Below, piece after piece: positions 12,335-19,235 of a stretch of 42,810 bases of DNA. How positions within the stretch are numbered: position 1 is the stretch's first letter; every line of letters starts with the position of its first letter. The notes beneath the pieces are model-generated. The model saw only the letters and a program-made list of their open reading frames with translations. It had not been told where the DNA came from and ran no database searches. Made by a program: the position numbers and the translations under genes. This DNA comes from a virus. The stretch lies in UHGV virus genome UHGV-0330108; one strand, 5' to 3'.

Positions 12335-12747
12335 TGGGCTACTTTGAGGACTTAACAAAAGCGTTTGACGCGCCGCTGGTAGCCTTCGGTACCGCAAACG
12401 GCATCAAGATTGCGCTTGAAAATATCGACGCACCGACGTCAACCGATACGCCGTATCTGGCAAGTTACATGCTACTCGCCGATACGGAACAGGCGGATTT
12501 GTTCTTCACGGAACAACGCTCCGGTGTTTATCAGGTCGACATTAACTACGCATCGGTGAAAGGTAGCGCGCCAATCAATAAAATGGCAGACTTACTTAAC
12601 ACGGCGTTTAAAGCAGGCAAGTCATTTTCGCGTAACGACATCTGCGCCGAGGTTCAATCGGTTAGCCTGGGGCCGCTGATTGTAGAAAACGGATGGGCCA
12701 AACGGCCATTGTCAATTAACTTTATTGCATTCACCAAGAGGCTGTGA
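12331..12747 (+). CDS. putative tail terminator/completion protein
   Basis: 138 aa ORF immediately upstream of the major tail protein gene; positional call. Confidence 0.45.
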   Translation: MMGYFEDLTKAFDAPLVAFGTANGIKIALENIDAPTSTDTPYLASYMLLADTEQADLFFTEQRSGVYQVDINYASVKGSAPINKMADLLNTAFKAGKSFSRNDICAEVQSVSLGPLIVENGWAKRPLSINFIAFTKRL

Positions 12748-13916
12748 ATATGGCTACAACTCCTTTTAAGGGCGCGAATACCGCGCAATTCTATGTGGCG
12801 GAAGTGACCCCGGGCGTAACACCTGCTAACCCGGTCTGGTCGCCGTTGCGTAACACTGGCGGTGTTCCTGCCGTAACCCGCGATGCGCTGACTTCCAACG
12901 AACTGGACGGCAGCCGTGAAACCACATCCATCCGCACTGGTAACAAGCAGGTCAGCGGAGAGTACGCCATTGAGCTTAGCTCCCGTAGCCAGGATGATTT
13001 CCTTGCGGGTGCTATGACTTCTACGTGGCAGGATGGGGTAGAGATTACGGGTGCCGAAATTACGGTCGCCCCAGCAGGTAAAACATTCACCCGCGCTGCC
13101 GGTAGCTTCATTACTGACGGTGTAGAAGTTGGCGACCTGATCGCGTTCACCGACTTAACCGGCGACAACGCAAAACCGTTTATCGTGACCGCGGTCGAGG
13201 CGCTCGTAGTAACAGGCGCAGGTATTCAGCACACGCTGACAGCAGAGACTGTAACCACCGACGCTAAAACTGGCGATAAACTGGAAACTGGTAACGCATG
13301 TAAGACGTTCTCCATCCTGACATGGTTCAAAGGCCAGTGCGGGAACCCTGACGCGTACATGCTGACCAAAGGCGTGGAAATCTCCGGTTTTACTATCGAG
13401 CAGGCCGTAAACGCTATGGTAACCGGCAGCTTCCCGTTCATTGGTCTGAGCCAGGAGATTCTTACCGCTCCGCCGTCCGGCTCTGATTTCTCCCGGGTTA
13501 CGTTCACCGATGAGCCGTTCTCGTCTGTAGATGTGTCTGTGTTCGACGGCTCTGCGCCGTTGCGTTGCGACAGCCTGACCATCACCAACGACAACAGCGC
13601 ATCCGCGCAGTTCGAACTCGGCAACAGTAGCGTCGCGTTCGTGGAACGCGGTCGCGCAGCTAACACCTTCTCCATCTCCGGCAAGCTGTACGACATGGCG
13701 ATGATTCAGAAGTTTATCAACGAACAGCAGGTAGAGATTAACTCTATTCTGGCGGGGGTAAACGGGGCTATGTCTTTCAGCCTGAAACGAGCAGAACTTA
13801 CGGCGGTTACACCAGAGATTGGTGGCCCTGAGTCAATCACTCAGTCTATTGAAGGCCAGGCCACCGGCAACCAGTACCAGTCATCTATCGTAATTCAACG
13901 TATCACCTACGCATAA
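12744..13916 (+). CDS. putative major tail protein
   Basis: 390 aa ORF between connector genes and the chaperone/tape-measure pair; followed by a strong terminator. Confidence 0.65.
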   Translation: MNMATTPFKGANTAQFYVAEVTPGVTPANPVWSPLRNTGGVPAVTRDALTSNELDGSRETTSIRTGNKQVSGEYAIELSSRSQDDFLAGAMTSTWQDGVEITGAEITVAPAGKTFTRAAGSFITDGVEVGDLIAFTDLTGDNAKPFIVTAVEALVVTGAGIQHTLTAETVTTDAKTGDKLETGNACKTFSILTWFKGQCGNPDAYMLTKGVEISGFTIEQAVNAMVTGSFPFIGLSQEILTAPPSGSDFSRVTFTDEPFSSVDVSVFDGSAPLRCDSLTITNDNSASAQFELGNSSVAFVERGRAANTFSISGKLYDMAMIQKFINEQQVEINSILAGVNGAMSFSLKRAELTAVTPEIGGPESITQSIEGQATGNQYQSSIVIQRITYA

Positions 13917-13950
13917 AACTAAGGCCCCAAACGGGGCCTTTTTCTTACTC
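13917..13950. terminator. bidirectional rho-independent terminator cassette
   Basis: AAAACT-AAGGCCCC-AAAC-GGGGCCTT-TTTTCTTACTC; the minus-strand gene's stop codon lies in the T-tract. Near-identical copy at 25239-25277. Confidence 0.65.
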
Positions 13951-14175
13951 ATCAATGTTACTTCTGTACTCCCGTAACTTCTCCAGGCTTTCAATTGCTT
14001 CCGCTAAGTCTGTTCCGGTGTCCTTGTGCCCGCGAAGGCCCATACACAATAATTTCTTCAATGCGTGCTGTAACGCCGGGTCGCGGATGTCGAAAGCGCG
14101 GAGCACATCATAAACGTCTACAGTCATAGTGCTGCCGTGGATGTTTGTCATTGTGCGGTTGTATTTTGAAGTCAT
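13945..14175 (-). CDS. hypothetical protein (76 aa)
   Basis: ORF track; last gene of the minus-strand island. Confidence 0.5.
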   Translation of the reverse strand: MTSKYNRTMTNIHGSTMTVDVYDVLRAFDIRDPALQHALKKLLCMGLRGHKDTGTDLAEAIESLEKLREYRSNIDE

Positions 14176-14188
14176 AAATCACTTTCCC

Positions 14189-14659
14189 CTACTCATGGTT
14201 TTCATGGAAACCGTATTTACTCTCCGCGGCTTTACGCGCGGCAACCGCTAGACCAAAATCGTCGTAAAGCCCTAAATGTACTTGTTTGTAGTTAACTTTT
14301 ATAAACGCGCGCCACTTACCCGCGGCTTTGTGGAAACTTACACCTGTAGCCCCGGATTTATTTATCTTTCGCATAGTTTTATTTTTACTGTTCCCTGTAT
14401 TGTCGGTGGCGCGTAGATTTTCTATTCTATTGTCTAGCCTGTTATGGTTTATGTGGTCTATTTGAGTTTTCCTGTCTAAGTTGCATTTATTATAAAGACA
14501 CCATGCTATGCGGTGGACATACACCGTTTTACCACCCATACCGCAGCACAGATAGCCTCTTACACCAACCGTACCAACCTCAGCGCCAGTAGATATCCTG
14601 GTCACCTGCCCCGTCTCAGGGCAGTATTTAAATTGTTTTGAAACATCAATATATCTCAT
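14189..14659 (-). CDS. HNH homing endonuclease with AP2-like DNA-binding domain
   Basis: HNH core GYLCCGMGGKTVYVHRIAW...IDHINHNRLDNRIENL; C-terminal GVSFHKAAGKWRAFIKVNYKQVHLGLYDDFGLAVAARKAA resembles an AP2 domain. Confidence 0.8.
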   Translation of the reverse strand: MRYIDVSKQFKYCPETGQVTRISTGAEVGTVGVRGYLCCGMGGKTVYVHRIAWCLYNKCNLDRKTQIDHINHNRLDNRIENLRATDNTGNSKNKTMRKINKSGATGVSFHKAAGKWRAFIKVNYKQVHLGLYDDFGLAVAARKAAESKYGFHENHE

Positions 14660-15786
14660 CTTAGCATCTCCGGTGAGATTGAAAGCCTACCTACTTCCCC
14701 GAACTCTGAACTATAGGTTATGACGTTAGCGGACCTCTTAGACATCCACCCGCCGCGAGAAGCATATGCATCTTTCGCCGCGAGAGTGCGATGCTGCTCC
14801 ACTACCATATTCCTACTTTCTACAATCTTTTGGTGGTGGAGATGCCCGACATGCGCATAACTGTACTCGCTTTCGCCAAATGCTTTTCTGAACTTAGCGA
14901 TCATAATGGGTTCTACCACCTCAAACCGGCATTTATGTCCGTGTGTAAAGAACAGCGTCGTTTTGCCGTGTTGCACCATCTTATAAACATCCGGCGACGT
15001 ATCGACGAACACACGAGGCTCATTGTCGTATAGCGTACTGAACATCTCAGCCAACCAAATCATGCCCGATTCGTCGTGGTTCCCTTGCACGATAAGCAAG
15101 CGAACATTTTTATGCTTAACGAGGGCCATATCGACAACACGGCGGACCATACGAATCATGTAGCGCACAAGTTTCTGATAGCGCGTGTCCGCATCTAGAA
15201 CATGACCACTTGCAGGTGTAACGGCATCCAGACTATCGAAGTGTGCAAGGTCCCCCAGCAGATTAATAACTCCTGTTCCAGCGTCAGGCGCTTTCTGAAA
15301 CGCCGCGTCGAACCATCGAGAGAACAGGTCTTCCGCAATCTTCATATCCCAGTCGTCGCCGCTCTCGTCGGCCCAGGCCAGCATACCGAGATGAAAATCA
15401 GATACCGTGTAAAGATTGAGTAGCTTGTCGTCACGTTTGGCGCGAATGGCTTTAACAGGCGCAACAGGGGTAATCTCCGACTTCATACCTTCAATTACGG
15501 CTTTCATCAACTCGACCTGACGTTCGGCATCGGTGTCAGTCTTAACCCATTGCAGTTTAGTATTGCCGAACTCGTCAACAAGTGACGACGTCCCTTTAAT
15601 CTTGTAGCCGTCCGGTACAAGGTGACTAACGTCGCGCCCGTGGCCTACGCCTTTCTTAGCCAGCTTCGCTTTACGGATGCGAATTACGCGGTCTGAGATG
15701 CCGTATTTACGGGCGATGTCGATATTCTTCATACCGGCGTTCAATTCTTCCTGCAACTGCTCGTCGGTTATTTTCTTCCGGGCCAT
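14656..15786 (-). CDS. calcineurin-like metallophosphoesterase with N-terminal HTH domain
   Basis: Phosphoesterase motifs in order: SDFHLG, LLGDLAHFD, QGNHDE, FFTHGH, GHLHH; N-terminal NIDIARKYGISDRVIRIRKAK is HTH-like. Confidence 0.7.
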   Translation of the reverse strand: MARKKITDEQLQEELNAGMKNIDIARKYGISDRVIRIRKAKLAKKGVGHGRDVSHLVPDGYKIKGTSSLVDEFGNTKLQWVKTDTDAERQVELMKAVIEGMKSEITPVAPVKAIRAKRDDKLLNLYTVSDFHLGMLAWADESGDDWDMKIAEDLFSRWFDAAFQKAPDAGTGVINLLGDLAHFDSLDAVTPASGHVLDADTRYQKLVRYMIRMVRRVVDMALVKHKNVRLLIVQGNHDESGMIWLAEMFSTLYDNEPRVFVDTSPDVYKMVQHGKTTLFFTHGHKCRFEVVEPIMIAKFRKAFGESEYSYAHVGHLHHQKIVESRNMVVEQHRTLAAKDAYASRGGWMSKRSANVITYSSEFGEVGRLSISPEMLR

Positions 15787-15823
15787 GCTTATTCCTCGTG
15801 CTTAGGATTTGTCCTATACTAGC

Positions 15824-16015
15824 TTACTTCTCGTTAACATTCGAGTTGCAAGCCCAGATTAAAATAAATACCCACGGCAGCAGAATCCAACCAAGAAACA
15901 GATTGGCCATGAATATCGCCAACTTCGCTTTATGGTTGCGGAAATACGCAACCAGGAAAGGTGCGAAATAGGCGAGCAGTGCAAACAGAATTAAGGAAAC
16001 TGGTAAACTTGACAT
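15824..16015 (-). CDS. small membrane protein (63 aa from MSSLP...)
   Basis: ORF track frame 15824-16030; second ATG at 16015 has GGAGGG 8 nt upstream; two predicted TM helices. Confidence 0.5.
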   Translation of the reverse strand: MSSLPVSLILFALLAYFAPFLVAYFRNHKAKLAIFMANLFLGWILLPWVFILIWACNSNVNEK

Positions 16016-16042
16016 TTTAAATCCCTCCATTGTTGGTGTGGG

Positions 16043-16181: not shown

Positions 16182-16598
16182 ATGAAACTTTCTGATTTTT
16201 ATTTCGAAGAGAAAGCACTGGTGGGCAAGAAGATGCCGATTCTGCTACCAAATGGTGAAGACTCAGGGGAGTGGCTTAACGTTGTAAGCCCTGATGCGGA
16301 TGCCGCCGTTAAAGCCGGGCGTGCTTTCATTATCGCGTACCGCCGCGGGCTGGCGCGTTTCGAAGAACTGGAAAAAGCCGCCAAAGAATCCGGCGACTAT
16401 ACTGAATATAACCTGGCGGTCAACGAACTGGCGGAAGACCTCAACCGGCAACTTGCCGCAGAAGTAGTAAACGGCTGGAGCTTTGATGAGCCTTTCTCTA
16501 AAGAAGCATTTAGCAAATTGCTGGACCAGTTCAAGGCATTAGGTACACAGGTGGCGGCGTTCCATAACGCCGAGCGCAAAGCATTACAGGAAAAGTAG
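16182..16598 (+). CDS. tail assembly chaperone
   Basis: 138 aa acidic protein immediately upstream of the tape measure gene; ends in GGAAAAG followed by TAG. Confidence 0.6.
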   Translation: MKLSDFYFEEKALVGKKMPILLPNGEDSGEWLNVVSPDADAAVKAGRAFIIAYRRGLARFEELEKAAKESGDYTEYNLAVNELAEDLNRQLAAEVVNGWSFDEPFSKEAFSKLLDQFKALGTQVAAFHNAERKALQEK

Positions 16599-16963
16599 AC
16601 GCGCTGTACAGGTTCGCCACCTATGAGTTCGTTGATAAGCATAAAATCAGAGAGTTTGATTCTATAGCTGACGGACACGAGCAGGCGCTTATCGCGATGG
16701 GTGTAATCGATAAGAAAAAACGTGCAGCGCGACGGGGTGGGCCAGAATGCCCGCCCCTTTTTATATCCACCTTTGAGACGTACTGTGACATTAAGTTTAC
16801 GCGACACGTGGGCGAGGACGCTGTAGTATTGTTCGCAAGAGAATCCGTTACGTGGCAAGACCTGAAAGCCTATCTCGATGTTACGCAAAAACAGCTTAGC
16901 CTGTTCGAGATAGACATTATCATGGGCTTAGAAGCAATCTTTGAAGGTAGAAATCATGGCTGA
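16568..16963 (+). CDS. putative -1 frameshift extension of the tail assembly chaperone
   Basis: The -1 frame is open from 16568 to 16963 and overlaps the end of the chaperone; candidate slippery site G GAA AAG at 16589-16595 next to the 0-frame stop. Confidence 0.4.
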   Translation, partial: RRAQSITGKVDALYRFATYEFVDKHKIREFDSIADGHEQALIAMGVIDKKKRAARRGGPECPPLFISTFETYCDIKFTRHVGEDAVVLFARESVTWQDLKAYLDVTQKQLSLFEIDIIMGLEAIFEGRNHG

Positions 16964-19235
16964 TACCGCTAGCTTGATAGTACGAGTATCATCGACCGGC
17001 GTCGATAAAACTACATCACAACTGAACGGCCTTACCAAGGCGGCGGGGGCCGCTGCCGCTGCCGTTGTCAGTCTGGAAACCGCTAAGCAGGTTTTCAGCG
17101 CGCTGGTGGACTCTCAGCGCAACTTCGATAAGCTAAATTCCGGCCTTATCACGATGACCGGAAGCGCAGAGAATGCGGCTAAGGCTTTCAGCGTCCTGCA
17201 ACAGTTCGCAAAAGAAACCCCGTATGGACTCAATCAGGCGGTAGAGGGTTTCACTAAACTTGTAGCCCTCGGCCTTAACCCCAGCAAAGAAGCGTTAATC
17301 TCCTACGGCAACACCGCCGCGGCTATGGGCAAAGACCTTAATCAGATGATTGAGGCCGTAGCGGACGCCAGTACCTTTGAGTTTGAGCGACTGAAAGAGT
17401 TTGGCATCAAGTCGTCACAGCAGGCAGATACAGTTTCGTTCACTTTCCGCGGTGTCACCACCACGGTTAAGAAGAACTCAGAAGAGATTCAGAAATACCT
17501 GCTAAATATCGGTAACACTGATTTCGCAGGAGCGATGGAAACGCGCTCGAAAACCTTAGATGGTCAGTTATCGAGCCTGGCGGACTCCTTCGACAGCCTT
17601 GTTCTTGCGGTAGCGCAGTCTGGTTTTGGCGATGCCGTAGGCGAGCAAGCTGCGACAGCGGAAGATGCTATCACGGCGCTTACCGACGCCATTGCGTCTA
17701 ACGAGATAGCGGCCACGCTCCAGGACTGGGTGACACTGTTCAATGAGTCGTTCAAGTTTATTTCTGATGCCCTGAATGACCTGGCATTCGATACAGAGGA
17801 CAAATCCGTTGATATGTCCGACTCGCTGGGGACTATCCCTGATGCCATCCGTGAGTGGTTGCCCGACATCCAGCAGACATTCCACGAGGTTATCGCATGG
17901 TTTCAGCGCATTGACGATTACGCCGTAGCGCTTGGCCAGACCCTTGCCGACGTGTTTGACCCGAGCAAAACGGCGGCGCTCACATTTAAAAAACTGACCG
18001 CAGAGGCTGACGCCGCATACGACGCCAGCATAAAACGCGCAGAGGCCGAATCACAGGCCATTACCAACAGGTCTAAGCAGCACAAGAAAGAAATTGAGGA
18101 ACAGCGCAAGCAGTACAACGAGCGCAAGAAGCAAGAAATTGACCTAGCCAGCCTTGTTAATGGGAAGGGGGGAACTGGTGGGGCTGGTGGAACAGGAAAC
18201 ACCAACGACAAAGACGCGAAAGCCGCCGCTAAGAAAGCGGAGCAATTGCGTAAACAGGCGCAAGATTATCTCGATACTCTGGCCCGTCAGAACAACGACG
18301 AGTTAAAGGCCATTGATGCGCAGGAACAGCAGAAACTGGCTAAGGCAAAAGAGTTCTACAGCCAGGGCGCGTTGTCTCTGAAAGAATACGAGCAAGCAAA
18401 AACGGCTATTGTCCTCGAAGCCGGACAAAACCGACAAGATGAACTGGATAAACGCCAGAAAGAAGCCCAGGAAAAGCAGCAGAAAGGTGAAGACTTCATG
18501 GCCCAGATTATGGGCCAGAACGCCGCCGAGCTTGAGCTTCTCGACATCCAGGAACAGCAGAAACTGGCGGTAGCGGATAAGTACCGTGAGCAGGGTCTGA
18601 TTAACGAGGAACAGTATCAAGCGGCGCTTAACGCTATCAATGAGCAGTATGCCACGAAACGTGCGGATGCTTTAGGTAGCTCTTTTGGTGATATGGCGGC
18701 TAATGCTAAAACAGCATTCGGCGAGGCGTCCACCGCGTATAAAGCGTTCGCTATTGCACAGGCAACTATCGCCACGTACACATCGGCTATTGAGGCATAT
18801 AAGTCAACGGCTGCTATCCCTGTTGTCGGCCCATTCCTGGCTCCTGTAGCTGCCGCCACTGCCGTCGCCGCGGGGCTGGCTAATATCGCCAAAATCCGCT
18901 CGGCGCGTGAACAGGGTGGTCAGTTATCAGCGGGCCAGATGTCTACAATAGCGGAGCGTGGCAAGCCAGAAGTTATCATGCCCGCGGGGGCGTCACGCGT
19001 GCGCACCGCGCAGCAGATGAAAGAGATTATGGGGCAAAACGGTGGCCAGTCCGGCGGTGATAACGTCACCATAGTCAACAACACCACCGGACGTGTGGAT
19101 TCTGCCGTAACAGAACGTGACGACGAAGGGCGTTTGCGTATTATAATCAGCGAAACAGTAGCGTCGCAGTTACAGGATAACAACTCACCGATTTCTAAAG
19201 CTCGCCGCGCTACCCGCGGTCAGCCGGGGTACTGA
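16956..19235 (+). CDS. tape measure protein
   Basis: ORF track frame 16941-19235; ~760 aa, Ala/Gln/Glu/Lys-rich predicted coiled coil; located after the chaperone. Confidence 0.85.
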   Translation: MADTASLIVRVSSTGVDKTTSQLNGLTKAAGAAAAAVVSLETAKQVFSALVDSQRNFDKLNSGLITMTGSAENAAKAFSVLQQFAKETPYGLNQAVEGFTKLVALGLNPSKEALISYGNTAAAMGKDLNQMIEAVADASTFEFERLKEFGIKSSQQADTVSFTFRGVTTTVKKNSEEIQKYLLNIGNTDFAGAMETRSKTLDGQLSSLADSFDSLVLAVAQSGFGDAVGEQAATAEDAITALTDAIASNEIAATLQDWVTLFNESFKFISDALNDLAFDTEDKSVDMSDSLGTIPDAIREWLPDIQQTFHEVIAWFQRIDDYAVALGQTLADVFDPSKTAALTFKKLTAEADAAYDASIKRAEAESQAITNRSKQHKKEIEEQRKQYNERKKQEIDLASLVNGKGGTGGAGGTGNTNDKDAKAAAKKAEQLRKQAQDYLDTLARQNNDELKAIDAQEQQKLAKAKEFYSQGALSLKEYEQAKTAIVLEAGQNRQDELDKRQKEAQEKQQKGEDFMAQIMGQNAAELELLDIQEQQKLAVADKYREQGLINEEQYQAALNAINEQYATKRADALGSSFGDMAANAKTAFGEASTAYKAFAIAQATIATYTSAIEAYKSTAAIPVVGPFLAPVAAATAVAAGLANIAKIRSAREQGGQLSAGQMSTIAERGKPEVIMPAGASRVRTAQQMKEIMGQNGGQSGGDNVTIVNNTTGRVDSAVTERDDEGRLRIIISETVASQLQDNNSPISKARRATRGQPGY

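What the first reader, a model, noticed from the sequence alone, without database searches (positions are those of the whole stretch)
16568..16963. Putative programmed -1 frameshift in the tail assembly chaperone (G/GT-like)
The chaperone ORF ends ...CAG GAA AAG TAG. The -1 frame is open from 16568 for ~130 codons up to the tape measure start. The sequence G GAA AAG lets the Lys-tRNA re-pair AAG to AAA and sits directly at the 0-frame stop, a layout conserved in tailed phages.
Basis: partly seen in the sequence, partly recalled or inferred. Interest (0 to 1): 0.5.

Follow-up and report, generated by a model that had tools for sequence, protein, structure and literature searches.

The report
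Tail chaperone frameshift with long-range stem
This is the programmed -1 ribosomal frameshift that lets a K1G-like coliphage make both a short and a long tail-assembly chaperone from one start codon; public records of close relatives already annotate it, but it uses a minimal slip site (A_AAG next to the stop codon) followed by a conserved long-range RNA stem that I could not find described.

Summary
The G-like chaperone ORF (16182-16598) ends CAG GAA AAG TAG. The -1 frame is open from 16568 to 16963 and overlaps the tape-measure ATG at 16956.

The window is a Kagunavirus, about 96% identical to phage K1G. My predicted fusion junction (...QEK|VDALY...) reproduces exactly the fusion proteins deposited for K1G, fKuEco01, Shelanagig and fFiEco02. 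The frameshift itself is therefore already annotated, though I found no experiment on it.

Evidence from 103 related loci (81 distinct sequences):
- A_AAG followed by TAG or TAA is invariant.
- The codon before AAG is always NNA, although its amino acid varies (E, A, G, S, K).
- The -1 frame shows a coding signature from its first codon and has no conserved start codon.

The canonical tandem-slip heptamer is not conserved; only the A_AAG tetramer is.

New detail: synonymous sites are frozen from -1 to +13 around the slip codon. This segment is the 5' arm of a long-range stem supported by covariation. In the window, 16600-16609 pairs with 16722-16731, starting 4 nt after AAG. Relatives place the 3' arm at one of two positions (about +130 or about +205). 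A stimulatory role for the stem is inferred, not shown.

The parts
16182..16598 (+). G-like tail assembly chaperone ORF (138 aa, 15.4 kDa), stop TAG at 16596-98
   Evidence: ORF list. Pfam PF08748 Phage_TAC_4, E 6.9e-6, above its cutoff. phrog_15027 positions 1-138/259, E 2e-71. The ORF is 417 nt in the annotated relatives fetched.
16592..16595 (+). Slip site A_AAG: the last A of GAA plus the last sense codon AAG. Context is CAG GAA AAG (heptamer 16589-16595).
   Evidence: Invariant in 81 distinct relatives, while the preceding codon is GAA 64, GCA 12, AAA 2, GGA 1, TCA 1. Third-position entropy is 0 at -1 and +2 against 1.5-2 bits elsewhere. In some relatives the -1 frame opens only 16 nt before the G stop, which leaves no other candidate site.
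16596..16598 (+). 0-frame stop TAG directly after the slip codon; possible 'shifty stop' contributor
   Evidence: The stop is adjacent in 80 of 81 distinct sequences and one codon later in the L020/L072 lineage. Counts: TAG 63, TAA 18, TGA 0. The next base is A 65, C 15, T 1, G 0.
16595..16963 (+). T extension read in the -1 frame (122 codons, VDALYRF...EGRNHG, then TGA at 16961-63). The fusion G-T is 260 aa, 29.4 kDa.
   Evidence: Translation. Pfam PF23812 Phage_TAC_18, E 2.4e-19. phrog_15027 positions 139-259. Homology runs from residue 1 in relatives at 39-55% identity. Coding signature and absence of a conserved start codon.
16600..16609 (+). 5' arm of the long-range stem (CGCGCUGUAC), 4 nt after the AAG codon; encodes part of T residues D2-A3-L4-Y5
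   Evidence: Synonymous sites of GCG and YTG are invariant. Duplex of -20.2 kcal/mol with 16722-16731, the best of 2915 windows within about 1.5 kb either side. It closes the MFE fold of 16596-16736. RNAalifold and pair counts on alignment A4.
16722..16731 (+). 3' arm of the long-range stem (GUGCAGCGCG); lies in the variable linker of T (residues R43-A44-A45-R46)
   Evidence: Ten bp, one of them G.U. The homologous position in Snoke-type and Shelanagig-type phages carries compensatory changes: CUGUAC/GUGCAG versus UUGUUUC/GAAACAA versus UUGCUCC/GGAAGCAA.
16956..19235 (+). Tape measure protein gene; its ATG overlaps the end of the T frame by 8 nt
   Evidence: phrog_1538, E 2e-190; Pfam TMP_3.
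12744..13916 (+). Tail tube (major tail) protein gene; synteny partner, separated from G by reverse-strand genes
   Evidence: Pfam PF18906 Phage_tube_2, E 2.9e-38.

Best explanation
Most ribosomes translating the chaperone gene (16182-16598) terminate at TAG and release G (138 aa).

A minority slip back one base while tRNA-Lys is on the last sense codon: AAG at 16593-95 re-pairs to AAA at 16592-94. These ribosomes then read GUA GAC GCG CUG ... in the -1 frame to the TGA at 16961-63. The product is a 260-aa G-T fusion whose C-terminal T domain is a Phage_TAC_18 module.

By analogy with lambda gpG/gpGT, G and the G part of G-T would coat the tape measure protein, and T would recruit the tube protein. 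Neither would end up in the virion.

The slip signal is the tetramer A_AAG, not a full X_XXY_YYZ heptamer. I infer that slipping is promoted by a conserved long-range RNA stem. Its 5' arm (16600-16609) starts 4 nt after the AAG codon and pairs with 16722-16731, closing a domain of about 112 nt. With AAG in the A site, the base of the stem would sit at the mRNA entrance of the ribosome. The stop codon directly after AAG may add a kinetic pause.

Shown here: the sequence layout, the coding signature, the conservation, and the covariation of the stem. Inferred: that a fusion protein is made, how efficiently, that the stem stimulates slipping, and the functions of the proteins.
For: Identity and synteny:
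- Tube gene, then G, then T, then tape measure. G is Phage_TAC_4, T is Phage_TAC_18, and both halves match one 259-position PHROG profile.

Slip site:
- A_AAG plus a stop is invariant in 81 distinct sequences whose G proteins are roughly 50% identical to the window's or less.
- The preceding codon is always NNA across five different amino acids.
- AAG is used at the last position although AAA is the commoner Lys codon (65%) in G.

Entry into the -1 frame must be at the junction:
- T homology and the synonymous-substitution signature start at residue 1.
- The first canonical start codon in the -1 frame is at T residue 4, 11, 13, 32, 35 ... up to 109, depending on the phage.
- In the window there is none before residue 35, yet residues 21-33 contain invariant positions.
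- The Leu codon inside the 5' arm is always CTG or TTG in the representative and distinct junction sequences. It is a Leu codon in every lineage and is never replaced by ATG or GTG.

Deposited fusion proteins of four relatives equal my junction exactly.

Stem:
- RNAalifold independently predicts it in both classes.
- 95.6% and 97.6% of cells are paired, against 11-54% when the partner is slid by 1-3 columns.
- Three pairs with compensatory changes in each class.
- 0 of 500 shuffles reach the observed covariation score.
- All 73 distinct segments have the stem at one of two positions.
- Class A uses rare NUA codons (AUA, CUA, GUA) opposite the Tyr codon.
- The window's own 141-nt fold has z = -2.34.

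Literature:
- A_AA.G is by far the most shift-prone tetramer in E. coli, reaching 5.6% with a downstream stimulator but only about background without one (PMC4066793).
- NNA_AAG sites are used in B. subtilis cdd and in IS1222 (PMC5009743).
Against: - I found no proteomic or reporter evidence for a G-T fusion in any Guernseyvirinae phage.
- One genome announcement for a relative states there is 'no canonical slippery sequence' (PMC6776780).
- In the window, the P-site codon GAA re-pairs only imperfectly to GGA.
- The first three T codons are constrained at the RNA level (GUA by the overlap, GCG by the stem). Their conservation therefore does not prove they are translated.
- The stem's loop is long (112-175 nt). 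The window's duplex energy alone (-20.2 kcal/mol) falls within the range reached by some control arms. Its support comes from cross-clade covariation.
- Within the K1G clade both arms are invariant, so there is no covariation at that scale.
- The 4-nt spacer is shorter than in classic bacterial examples; that comparison rests on my own recollection.
Confidence: 0.8

Rival explanations
1. Termination-reinitiation. Ribosomes terminate at TAG and restart 5 nt downstream at the CUG/UUG codon (16604-06), making T as a separate protein. The long-range stem would hide this weak start from free ribosomes, so that only terminating ribosomes could use it.
For: - The YUG codon lies inside the invariant 5' arm, with its second and third bases fixed.
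- Several depositors annotate T as a separate CDS starting at this codon (Snoke, Eta, Jersey, Kenya-K22, Bas74).
- The three codons between the junction and YUG are constrained at the RNA level, so they give no independent proof of translation.
Against: - The codon is CUG, a very poor initiator in E. coli, in about 90% of representatives. It is never AUG or GUG, although a start codon would be free to change.
- There is no conserved SD-like sequence upstream.
- This model leaves unexplained the invariance of A_AAG, the NNA codon before it, and the choice of AAG over AAA.
Confidence: 0.07
2. Independent initiation at the first ATG of the -1 frame (16697), giving the 88-aa ORF that automatic gene callers report.
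For: The ORF list shows 16697..16963 as an ATG-initiated ORF. Database clusters hold many T fragments of 87-119 aa called this way.
Against: - The 34 codons upstream of that ATG are homologous across the family, with invariant F21, D22, I24, H28 and I33, and they carry a coding signature.
- The position of the first start codon is not conserved, and in two loci it falls at T residue 109.
- By eye, there is no SD-like sequence before 16697 (GCGCTTATCGCG ATG).
Confidence: 0.02
3. The frameshift is real, but the long-range stem serves another purpose, such as mRNA stability or processing, blocking internal initiation, or pacing translation before the tape measure gene. The slip would then depend only on A_AAG and the adjacent stop codon (a P-site 'shifty stop' slip).
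For: - The stop is adjacent in 80 of 81 distinct sequences, is never TGA, and the base after it is A or C in 80 of 81.
- If the slip happens with AAG in the P site, the stem would begin only 1-2 nt after the A-site codon. That is too close to act as a classic roadblock.
- The loop is unusually long.
Against: - The 5' arm starts at the same distance from AAG (+7/+8) in every lineage, even though the 3' arm sits at two different places. This points to a constraint tied to the slip site.
- In E. coli, tetramer sites are barely above background without a downstream stimulator (PMC4066793).
- In the L020/L072 lineage the stop has moved one codon away, but A_AAG and the stem are retained.
Confidence: 0.2
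4. Transcriptional slippage: RNA polymerase adds or drops an A in the A run, rather than the ribosome slipping.
For: The site contains an A run, AAAA in GGAAAAG.
Against: The run is only 3 A in the GCA AAG and TCA AAG lineages and 4 in most others. From my own knowledge, efficient polymerase slippage needs runs of roughly 7 or more; I did not test this.
Confidence: 0.01

Closest known systems
Phage lambda gpG / gpGT tail assembly chaperones (-1 frameshift at G_GGA_AAG); Levin 1993 and Xu 2004, as summarised in PMC5009743
   Same: - Two overlapping ORFs directly upstream of the tape measure gene.
- A short product plus a -1 fusion made from one start codon.
- The A-site slip codon is AAG, read by tRNA-Lys.
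- One relative, RP180 (L018), even carries the lambda heptamer G_GGA_AAG.
   Different: - G and T belong to different Pfam families here (Phage_TAC_4 and Phage_TAC_18).
- The heptamer is not conserved; only A_AAG is.
- The slip codon is the last sense codon.
- A covarying long-range stem follows the site.
- The tube gene is separated from G by about 2.2 kb of reverse-strand genes.
Annotated frameshift of Escherichia phage K1G ORF22A/ORF22B (YP_009168805.1 / YP_009168804.1), with the same annotation in fKuEco01, fFiEco02 and Shelanagig
   Same: The same genus, about 95-96% nucleotide identity, an identical junction sequence and an identical fusion architecture.
   Different: These are annotations only. 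Other records of the same family annotate two separate genes, and one paper denies that a slippery sequence exists.
Hexanucleotide NNA_AAG -1 frameshift sites: B. subtilis cdd (A_CGA_AAG) and IS1222 (G_CGA_AAG); PMC5009743
   Same: A single-tRNA slip of tRNA-Lys on A_AAG, with a P-site codon that cannot fully re-pair. Efficiency depends on the identity of the 5' codon.
   Different: The 5' codon here is GAA, GCA, GGA, TCA or AAA rather than CGA. I have no efficiency data for this site.
IS911 / IS3-family -1 frameshift stimulators (downstream pseudoknot or three-way junction after A_AAA_AAG or A_AAG); reference B48 in PMC4066793
   Same: A lysine slip site followed, a few nucleotides later, by a stem that closes a larger branched domain. 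The window's MFE fold is a three-way junction.
   Different: - There is no upstream SD-like element here.
- The closing stem spans 112-175 nt of coding sequence.
- The 3' arm has two alternative locations in different clades.
- The internal branches are not supported by covariation.
Burkholderia phage KL1 gp18/gp19 (predicted GGGAAAC immediately upstream of the TGA stop); PMC3483164
   Same: A predicted chaperone slip site that abuts the 0-frame stop codon.
   Different: KL1 has a canonical heptamer. It is an unrelated phage group, and its stem-loop rests on an mfold prediction only.

Membership tests
G/GT-type tail assembly chaperone frameshift (lambda-like) | Two overlapping ORFs located between the major tail (tube) gene and the tape measure gene, with the second in the -1 frame | tested here: met
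   G is 16182-16598. The -1 ORF runs to 16963 and overlaps the TMP ATG at 16956. The tube gene is at 12744-13916. One deviation: reverse-strand genes at 13945-16030 lie between tube and G.
G/GT-type tail assembly chaperone frameshift (lambda-like) | A slippery sequence within the short overlap that allows tRNA re-pairing in the -1 frame | tested here: met
   A_AAG at 16592-95 is the only candidate in the overlap and is invariant in 81 distinct relatives. The full X_XXY_YYZ heptamer is not met in the window (G_GAA_AAG) and is not conserved.
G/GT-type tail assembly chaperone frameshift (lambda-like) | The downstream ORF lacks its own conserved translation start and is coding right up to the junction | tested here: met
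   The first canonical start codon varies from T residue 4 to 109. The coding signature begins at the junction. Homology runs from residue 1.
G/GT-type tail assembly chaperone frameshift (lambda-like) | The arrangement is conserved in diverged relatives | tested here: met
   In 102 of 103 loci T is in the -1 frame relative to G. The exception, L057, is an old record with indels in G and the same junction.
G/GT-type tail assembly chaperone frameshift (lambda-like) | A fusion protein is made at a low fixed ratio and is needed for tail assembly | not testable with these tools
   No proteomic or genetic data were found for this phage group.
Pfam Phage_TAC_4 (G) and Phage_TAC_18 (T) | Score above the curated gathering threshold | tested here: met
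   G scores 26.7 bits against a cutoff of 21.1. T scores 69.7 bits against a cutoff of 27.
Structured -1 PRF stimulator (stem, pseudoknot or three-way junction a few nt 3' of the slip site) | A conserved base-paired element supported by covariation, at a fixed short distance from the slip site | tested here: met
   The 5' arm starts at +7/+8 from the first A of AAG in all 73 distinct segments. Pairing is 95.6-97.6%. Each class has three compensatory pairs. 0 of 500 shuffles reach the covariation score.
Structured -1 PRF stimulator (stem, pseudoknot or three-way junction a few nt 3' of the slip site) | Disrupting the structure lowers frameshifting, and compensatory mutations restore it | not testable with these tools
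   This needs a reporter assay.
dnaX / IS911-type signal with upstream SD-like enhancer | An SD-like sequence about 10-14 nt 5' of the slip site | tested here: not met
   Mean anti-SD duplex energy is -2.25 kcal/mol against a background of -2.7. Only the Jersey type (AAGGAG, -8.0) and L075 have such a sequence.

The most novel reading that the evidence does not exclude
In the whole Guernseyvirinae / Sarkviridae-like group, the chaperone frameshift would be driven by a bare A_AAG tetramer at the last sense codon plus a long-range stem that closes 112-175 nt of T-coding RNA, rather than by a canonical heptamer.

The 5' arm is fixed. The 3' arm has been relocated during evolution between two sites: the variable linker at about +130, and the K-F-(I/V/L)-Q-R codons at about +205. 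The need to pair dictates the protein sequence and forces rare codons (AUA, CUA) in T.

If so, this would be a clear covariation-supported stimulator for a phage tail-chaperone frameshift, and an example of 'arm switching' in a recoding signal.
Probability: 0.55. Interest if true: 0.5.

Novelty: already known. Interest (0 to 1): 0.3.

Why it matters
The frameshift itself is routine. It matters mainly for annotation. Gene callers and many GenBank records split T into 87-119-aa 'hypothetical proteins', and one paper denies that a slip site exists. The comparative evidence here settles where the junction is.

The added point of interest is mechanistic. A minimal A_AAG site that is barely shifty on its own is paired, in every relative examined, with a covarying long-range stem whose 3' partner differs between clades. 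That gives a compact natural system, about 150 nt and E. coli-native, for three tests:
- how tetramer sites are boosted;
- how a stop codon and a structure cooperate;
- how RNA pairing constrains an overlapping protein sequence.

Tried and rejected
- **Local downstream hairpin or pseudoknot.** Folding 16596-16690 gave z = -1.25. RNAalifold on -9..+105 over 12 diverse relatives gave -0.81 kcal/mol with only trivial 3-bp helices. I rejected a local structure. The real partner lies further downstream and was found only after the synonymous-site profile and a column-wise helix search.
- **Candidate partners at +67..+70 (CAGC) and +90..+95.** They recur in single-sequence folds, but they are not conserved and are absent in the window's clade. 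Rejected.
- **Pairing of the 5' arm with upstream G sequence.** At most 50% of representatives form it. Rejected.
- **Upstream SD-like enhancer.** Not conserved.
- **Rfam.** No family matches 16400-17000 at E up to 1.
- **Solved structures.** Only a marginal 33-residue match to 7uek_A (E about 0.001), which is not informative.
- **Bacterial genome scan for prophage copies.** One hit only, a Jerseyvirus-like contig in a Taishania assembly.
- **Literature.** No paper in the library combines Kagunavirus with frameshift. The Jerseyvirinae paper (PMID 25663216), which a GenBank note cites for a predicted secondary structure at this spot, is not held. Prior description of some structure there cannot be excluded.
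- **Not run.** I skipped structure prediction of G and T, and the large protein searches, because the Pfam and PHROG matches and the exact-sequence look-up already answered the identity question.
Full report
**What the window is.** The region 16100-17100 matches 117 phage records at 80-99% identity, almost all of them Escherichia phages of the genus Kagunavirus (Guernseyvirinae; K1G, K1ind1-3, RP180 and others).

The local gene order is as follows:
- tail tube gene, 12744-13916, Pfam Phage_tube_2;
- a block of reverse-strand genes, 13945-16030: an HNH endonuclease, a metallophosphoesterase and a superinfection-immunity protein;
- the 138-aa ORF 16182-16598;
- the overlapping -1 ORF;
- the tape measure gene, whose ATG is at 16956.

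**Checking the observation.** The sequence reads CAG GAA AAG TAG, with the TAG at 16596-98. The -1 frame is closed by a TAA at 16565-67 and is then open for 132 codons to the TGA at 16961-63. The only correction concerns the tape measure ATG, which lies at 16956-58; the -1 ORF therefore overlaps it by 8 nt. The fusion is 260 aa and 29.4 kDa, against 15.4 kDa for G alone.

**Identity of the two parts.**
- G matches Pfam Phage_TAC_4 (26.7 bits, cutoff 21.1).
- The -1 extension matches Phage_TAC_18 (E 2.4e-19).
- The two halves match positions 1-138 and 139-259 of a single 259-position PHROG profile annotated 'tail assembly chaperone' (phrog_15027).

**It is already annotated.** RefSeq K1G carries a joined CDS (ORF22B) beside ORF22A.

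I built fusions by reading AAG as Lys and then re-reading its G as the first base of GUA. For K1G, Shelanagig and fFiEco02, these exact sequences are in the protein collection under ADA82267.1/YP_009168804.1/QNO11738.1, YP_010747304.1 and YP_010749005.1.

Other depositors annotate two separate genes (Bas74, Snoke, Tsm2, Eta, Jersey, STP03, Kenya-K22). The short literature disagrees with itself. The Shelanagig announcement says the phage 'contains the slippery sequence' (PMC6763656). The Shashou announcement says there is 'no canonical slippery sequence' (PMC6776780). I found no experiment on the fusion in this group.

**Comparative test of the slip site.** I collected 103 loci with both G and T from IMG/VR and GenBank. 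T identity falls to about 38%, and G alignment scores fall to about a third of the self score.

- In 102 loci T is in the -1 frame. The exception, L057, is an old record with two indels inside G and an unchanged junction.
- Among 81 distinct G..T sequences, the last sense codon is AAG in 80. The remaining lineage (L020/L072) has AAG TTA TAG, so only its stop has moved.
- The codon before AAG is GAA 64, GCA 12, AAA 2, GGA 1, TCA 1. These encode five different amino acids and all end in A.
- The stop is TAG 63, TAA 18, TGA 0. The base after it is A 65, C 15, T 1, G 0.
- Elsewhere in G, Lys is 65% AAA, Ala is 22% GCA and Gly is 11% GGA.
- In some genomes the -1 frame opens only 16 nt before the stop. 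That leaves A_AAG as the only possible site.
- GCA and TCA cannot re-pair in the -1 frame, so tandem slippage on a heptamer is not the conserved mechanism. RP180 happens to carry the lambda heptamer G_GGA_AAG.

This fits what is known for E. coli. A_AA.G is by far the most shift-prone tetramer (PMC4066793). NNA_AAG sites are used by B. subtilis cdd and IS1222 (PMC5009743).

**Is T entered at the junction?**
- The T alignment has invariant residues from position 1, including F21, D22, I24, H28 and I33. All of these lie upstream of the window's first -1-frame ATG at 16697.
- In the 31 codons after the junction, 44.6% of differing codon pairs are synonymous in the T frame and there are no stops. 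The other frames give 11% and 7% synonymous, with 71 and 175 stops.
- The first canonical start codon in the open -1 frame is at T residue 4, 11, 13, 32, 35 or later, up to 109, depending on the phage.

Independent initiation at a conserved start is therefore excluded.

**A conserved RNA element.** In 30 representatives below 90% identity, third codon positions are saturated (1.5-2.0 bits) across 180 nt. The exception is a sharp dip from -1 to +13 relative to the first A of AAG: A AAG UAR NN GCG YUG. The Ala codon there is always GCG (one ACG), and the Leu codon is always CUG or UUG.

Local folds did not explain this. A column-wise helix search and duplex calculations showed that this segment is the 5' arm of a long-range stem.

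- **Class A** (36 distinct segments). Positions +8..+18 (GCGCUGUAUGA) pair with +201..+211 (UCAUACAGCGC), which are the codons for F-(I/V/L)-Q-R. Duplexes are -18 to -28 kcal/mol. The hydrophobic codon opposite the Tyr codon is a rare NUA codon, and UAU/AUA changes to UAC/GUA.
- **Class B** (36 distinct segments, plus L070 with 8 bp). This class includes the window. The same 5' arm pairs with +129..+137, in the variable linker of T. Compensatory changes occur between clades: CUGUAC/GUGCAG in the K1G type, UUGUUUC/GAAACAA in the Shelanagig type and UUGCUCC/GGAAGCAA in the Snoke type. In twelve diverse lineages the 3' arm always ends at +137/+138.

RNAalifold predicts both stems without guidance. 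Pair counts are as follows:

| Class | Cells paired | Paired when partner slid 1-3 columns | Pairs changed on both sides | Shuffles reaching the covariation score |
|---|---|---|---|---|
| B (alignment A4) | 95.6% | 24-53% | 3 | 0 of 500 |
| A (alignment A5) | 97.6% | 11-54% | 3 | 0 of 500 |

In the window the stem is 16600-16609 (CGCGCUGUAC) with 16722-16731 (GUGCAGCGCG): 10 bp, -20.2 kcal/mol, and the best of 2915 candidate windows within about 1.5 kb either side. It closes the MFE structure of 16596-16736, which is -44.5 kcal/mol with z = -2.34 and is equalled or beaten by 5 of 200 shuffles.

Both arms are unchanged in relatives 92% identical to the window. No upstream SD-like element is conserved, and no Rfam family matches.

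**Most likely mechanism.** With GAA in the P site and AAG in the A site, the base of the stem lies 10-11 nt from the first P-site nucleotide. From general knowledge of -1 frameshifting, that is where stimulatory structures meet the mRNA entrance. Tetramer sites need such a stimulator to rise above background in E. coli.

I therefore propose that the stem resists translocation. tRNA-Lys slips from AAG to AAA, and the ribosome continues with GUA in the -1 frame. Ribosomes that do not slip terminate at once at UAG.

The adjacent stop may add a pause. It is conserved, it is never UGA, and it is followed by A or C. However, it has moved by one codon in one lineage that keeps both A_AAG and the stem. 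I cannot decide its role from sequence alone.

The protein functions (G coats the tape measure protein, T recruits the tube protein) are taken by analogy from lambda (PMC5009743).

**Rivals.**
- *Reinitiation at the CUG/UUG codon 5 nt after the stop* cannot be excluded by conservation of the first three T codons, because those are constrained at the RNA level. Against it: the codon is never AUG or GUG, there is no SD, and the model does not explain A_AAG, the NNA codon or the choice of AAG.
- *Initiation at ATG 16697* is excluded by the upstream coding signature.
- *Transcriptional slippage* is unlikely on runs of 3-4 A.
- *The stem might have another role*, such as stability, masking of internal starts or pacing. 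The fixed distance of its 5' arm from the slip codon, despite two different 3' partners, argues for a link to the frameshift. This remains an inference.

**Verdict.** The feature is a G/GT-type chaperone frameshift that public records of near-identical phages already annotate, so as a finding it is ordinary.

This check adds three things:
- the conserved signal is the tetramer A_AAG at the last sense codon, not a heptamer;
- the junction can be fixed with confidence across the family;
- a covariation-supported long-range stem with two alternative 3' arms follows the site.

I could not find this stem described. A GenBank note for phage Snoke cites a 2015 paper, not available to me, for a 'predicted secondary structure' at this place.

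Noticed in passing
window 14189-14659 (- strand): A 156-aa HNH_3 + AP2-like endonuclease sits directly upstream (in its own orientation) of the metallophosphoesterase gene. K1G and fKuEco01 have a polynucleotide kinase/phosphatase at that position. It looks like a homing-endonuclease replacement or insertion specific to this isolate's lineage.
   Followed up: partly
window 13945-16030 (- strand): A reverse-strand block lies between the tail tube gene and the chaperone gene, interrupting the usual tube-G-T-TMP order. It holds a 76-aa ORF with no family match, the HNH endonuclease, a 376-aa metallophosphoesterase ('DNA repair exonuclease') and a 68-aa Imm_superinfect membrane protein.
   Followed up: partly
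L110 (NZ_JACVEL010000023.1, Taishania pollutisoli scaffold23, 13 kb): This was the only hit in 185,579 bacterial and archaeal genomes. It is a contig whose chaperone region matches the Salmonella Jerseyvirus type, with the same junction and a 138-aa G. It is probably phage contamination of that assembly rather than a prophage.
   Followed up: partly
L057 (IMGVR_UViG_638275545_000001) 320-600: An old 40.8-kb phage record has two indels inside the G gene that break the ORF, while the junction CAG GAA AAG TAG is intact. These are probably sequencing errors.
   Followed up: partly
L113 (PP107912.1, Klebsiella phage vB_kpnM_D1, UNVERIFIED); equivalent to window 16714-16719: One A is missing from the A6 run inside the T linker, which splits the tblastn match into two pieces. 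This is either a sequencing error or a real frameshift in T.
   Followed up: partly
Alignment A5 columns 49-53 with 74-78 (about +38..+42 with +63..+67 from the AAG codon; window about 16631-16660): RNAalifold also predicts a 5-bp inner hairpin (GUCGA / UCGAC, in the F-V-D and F-D-S codons) that is kept in nearly all class A sequences, with only one-sided changes. A weaker version appears in class B. It may be a branch of the domain closed by the long-range stem, or simply a result of protein conservation.
   Followed up: no
window 16596-16599 and relatives: The stop after the slip codon is TAG in 63 and TAA in 18 of 81 distinct sequences, and never TGA, even though TGA would also keep Val (GUG) in the -1 frame. 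The following base is A or C in 80 of 81. This may reflect selection for a particular termination context, or simply shared ancestry.
   Followed up: partly
Protein clusters: Public collections hold hundreds of 87-, 88-, 110- and 119-aa 'hypothetical proteins' that are N-terminally truncated calls of the T frame. This is a systematic annotation artefact for the family.
   Followed up: no
window fusion protein residues 205-237 (T part): There is a marginal sequence match (E about 0.001, 22 bits) to PDB 7uek chain A ('OT3'). I did not examine it further; it is probably chance.
   Followed up: no
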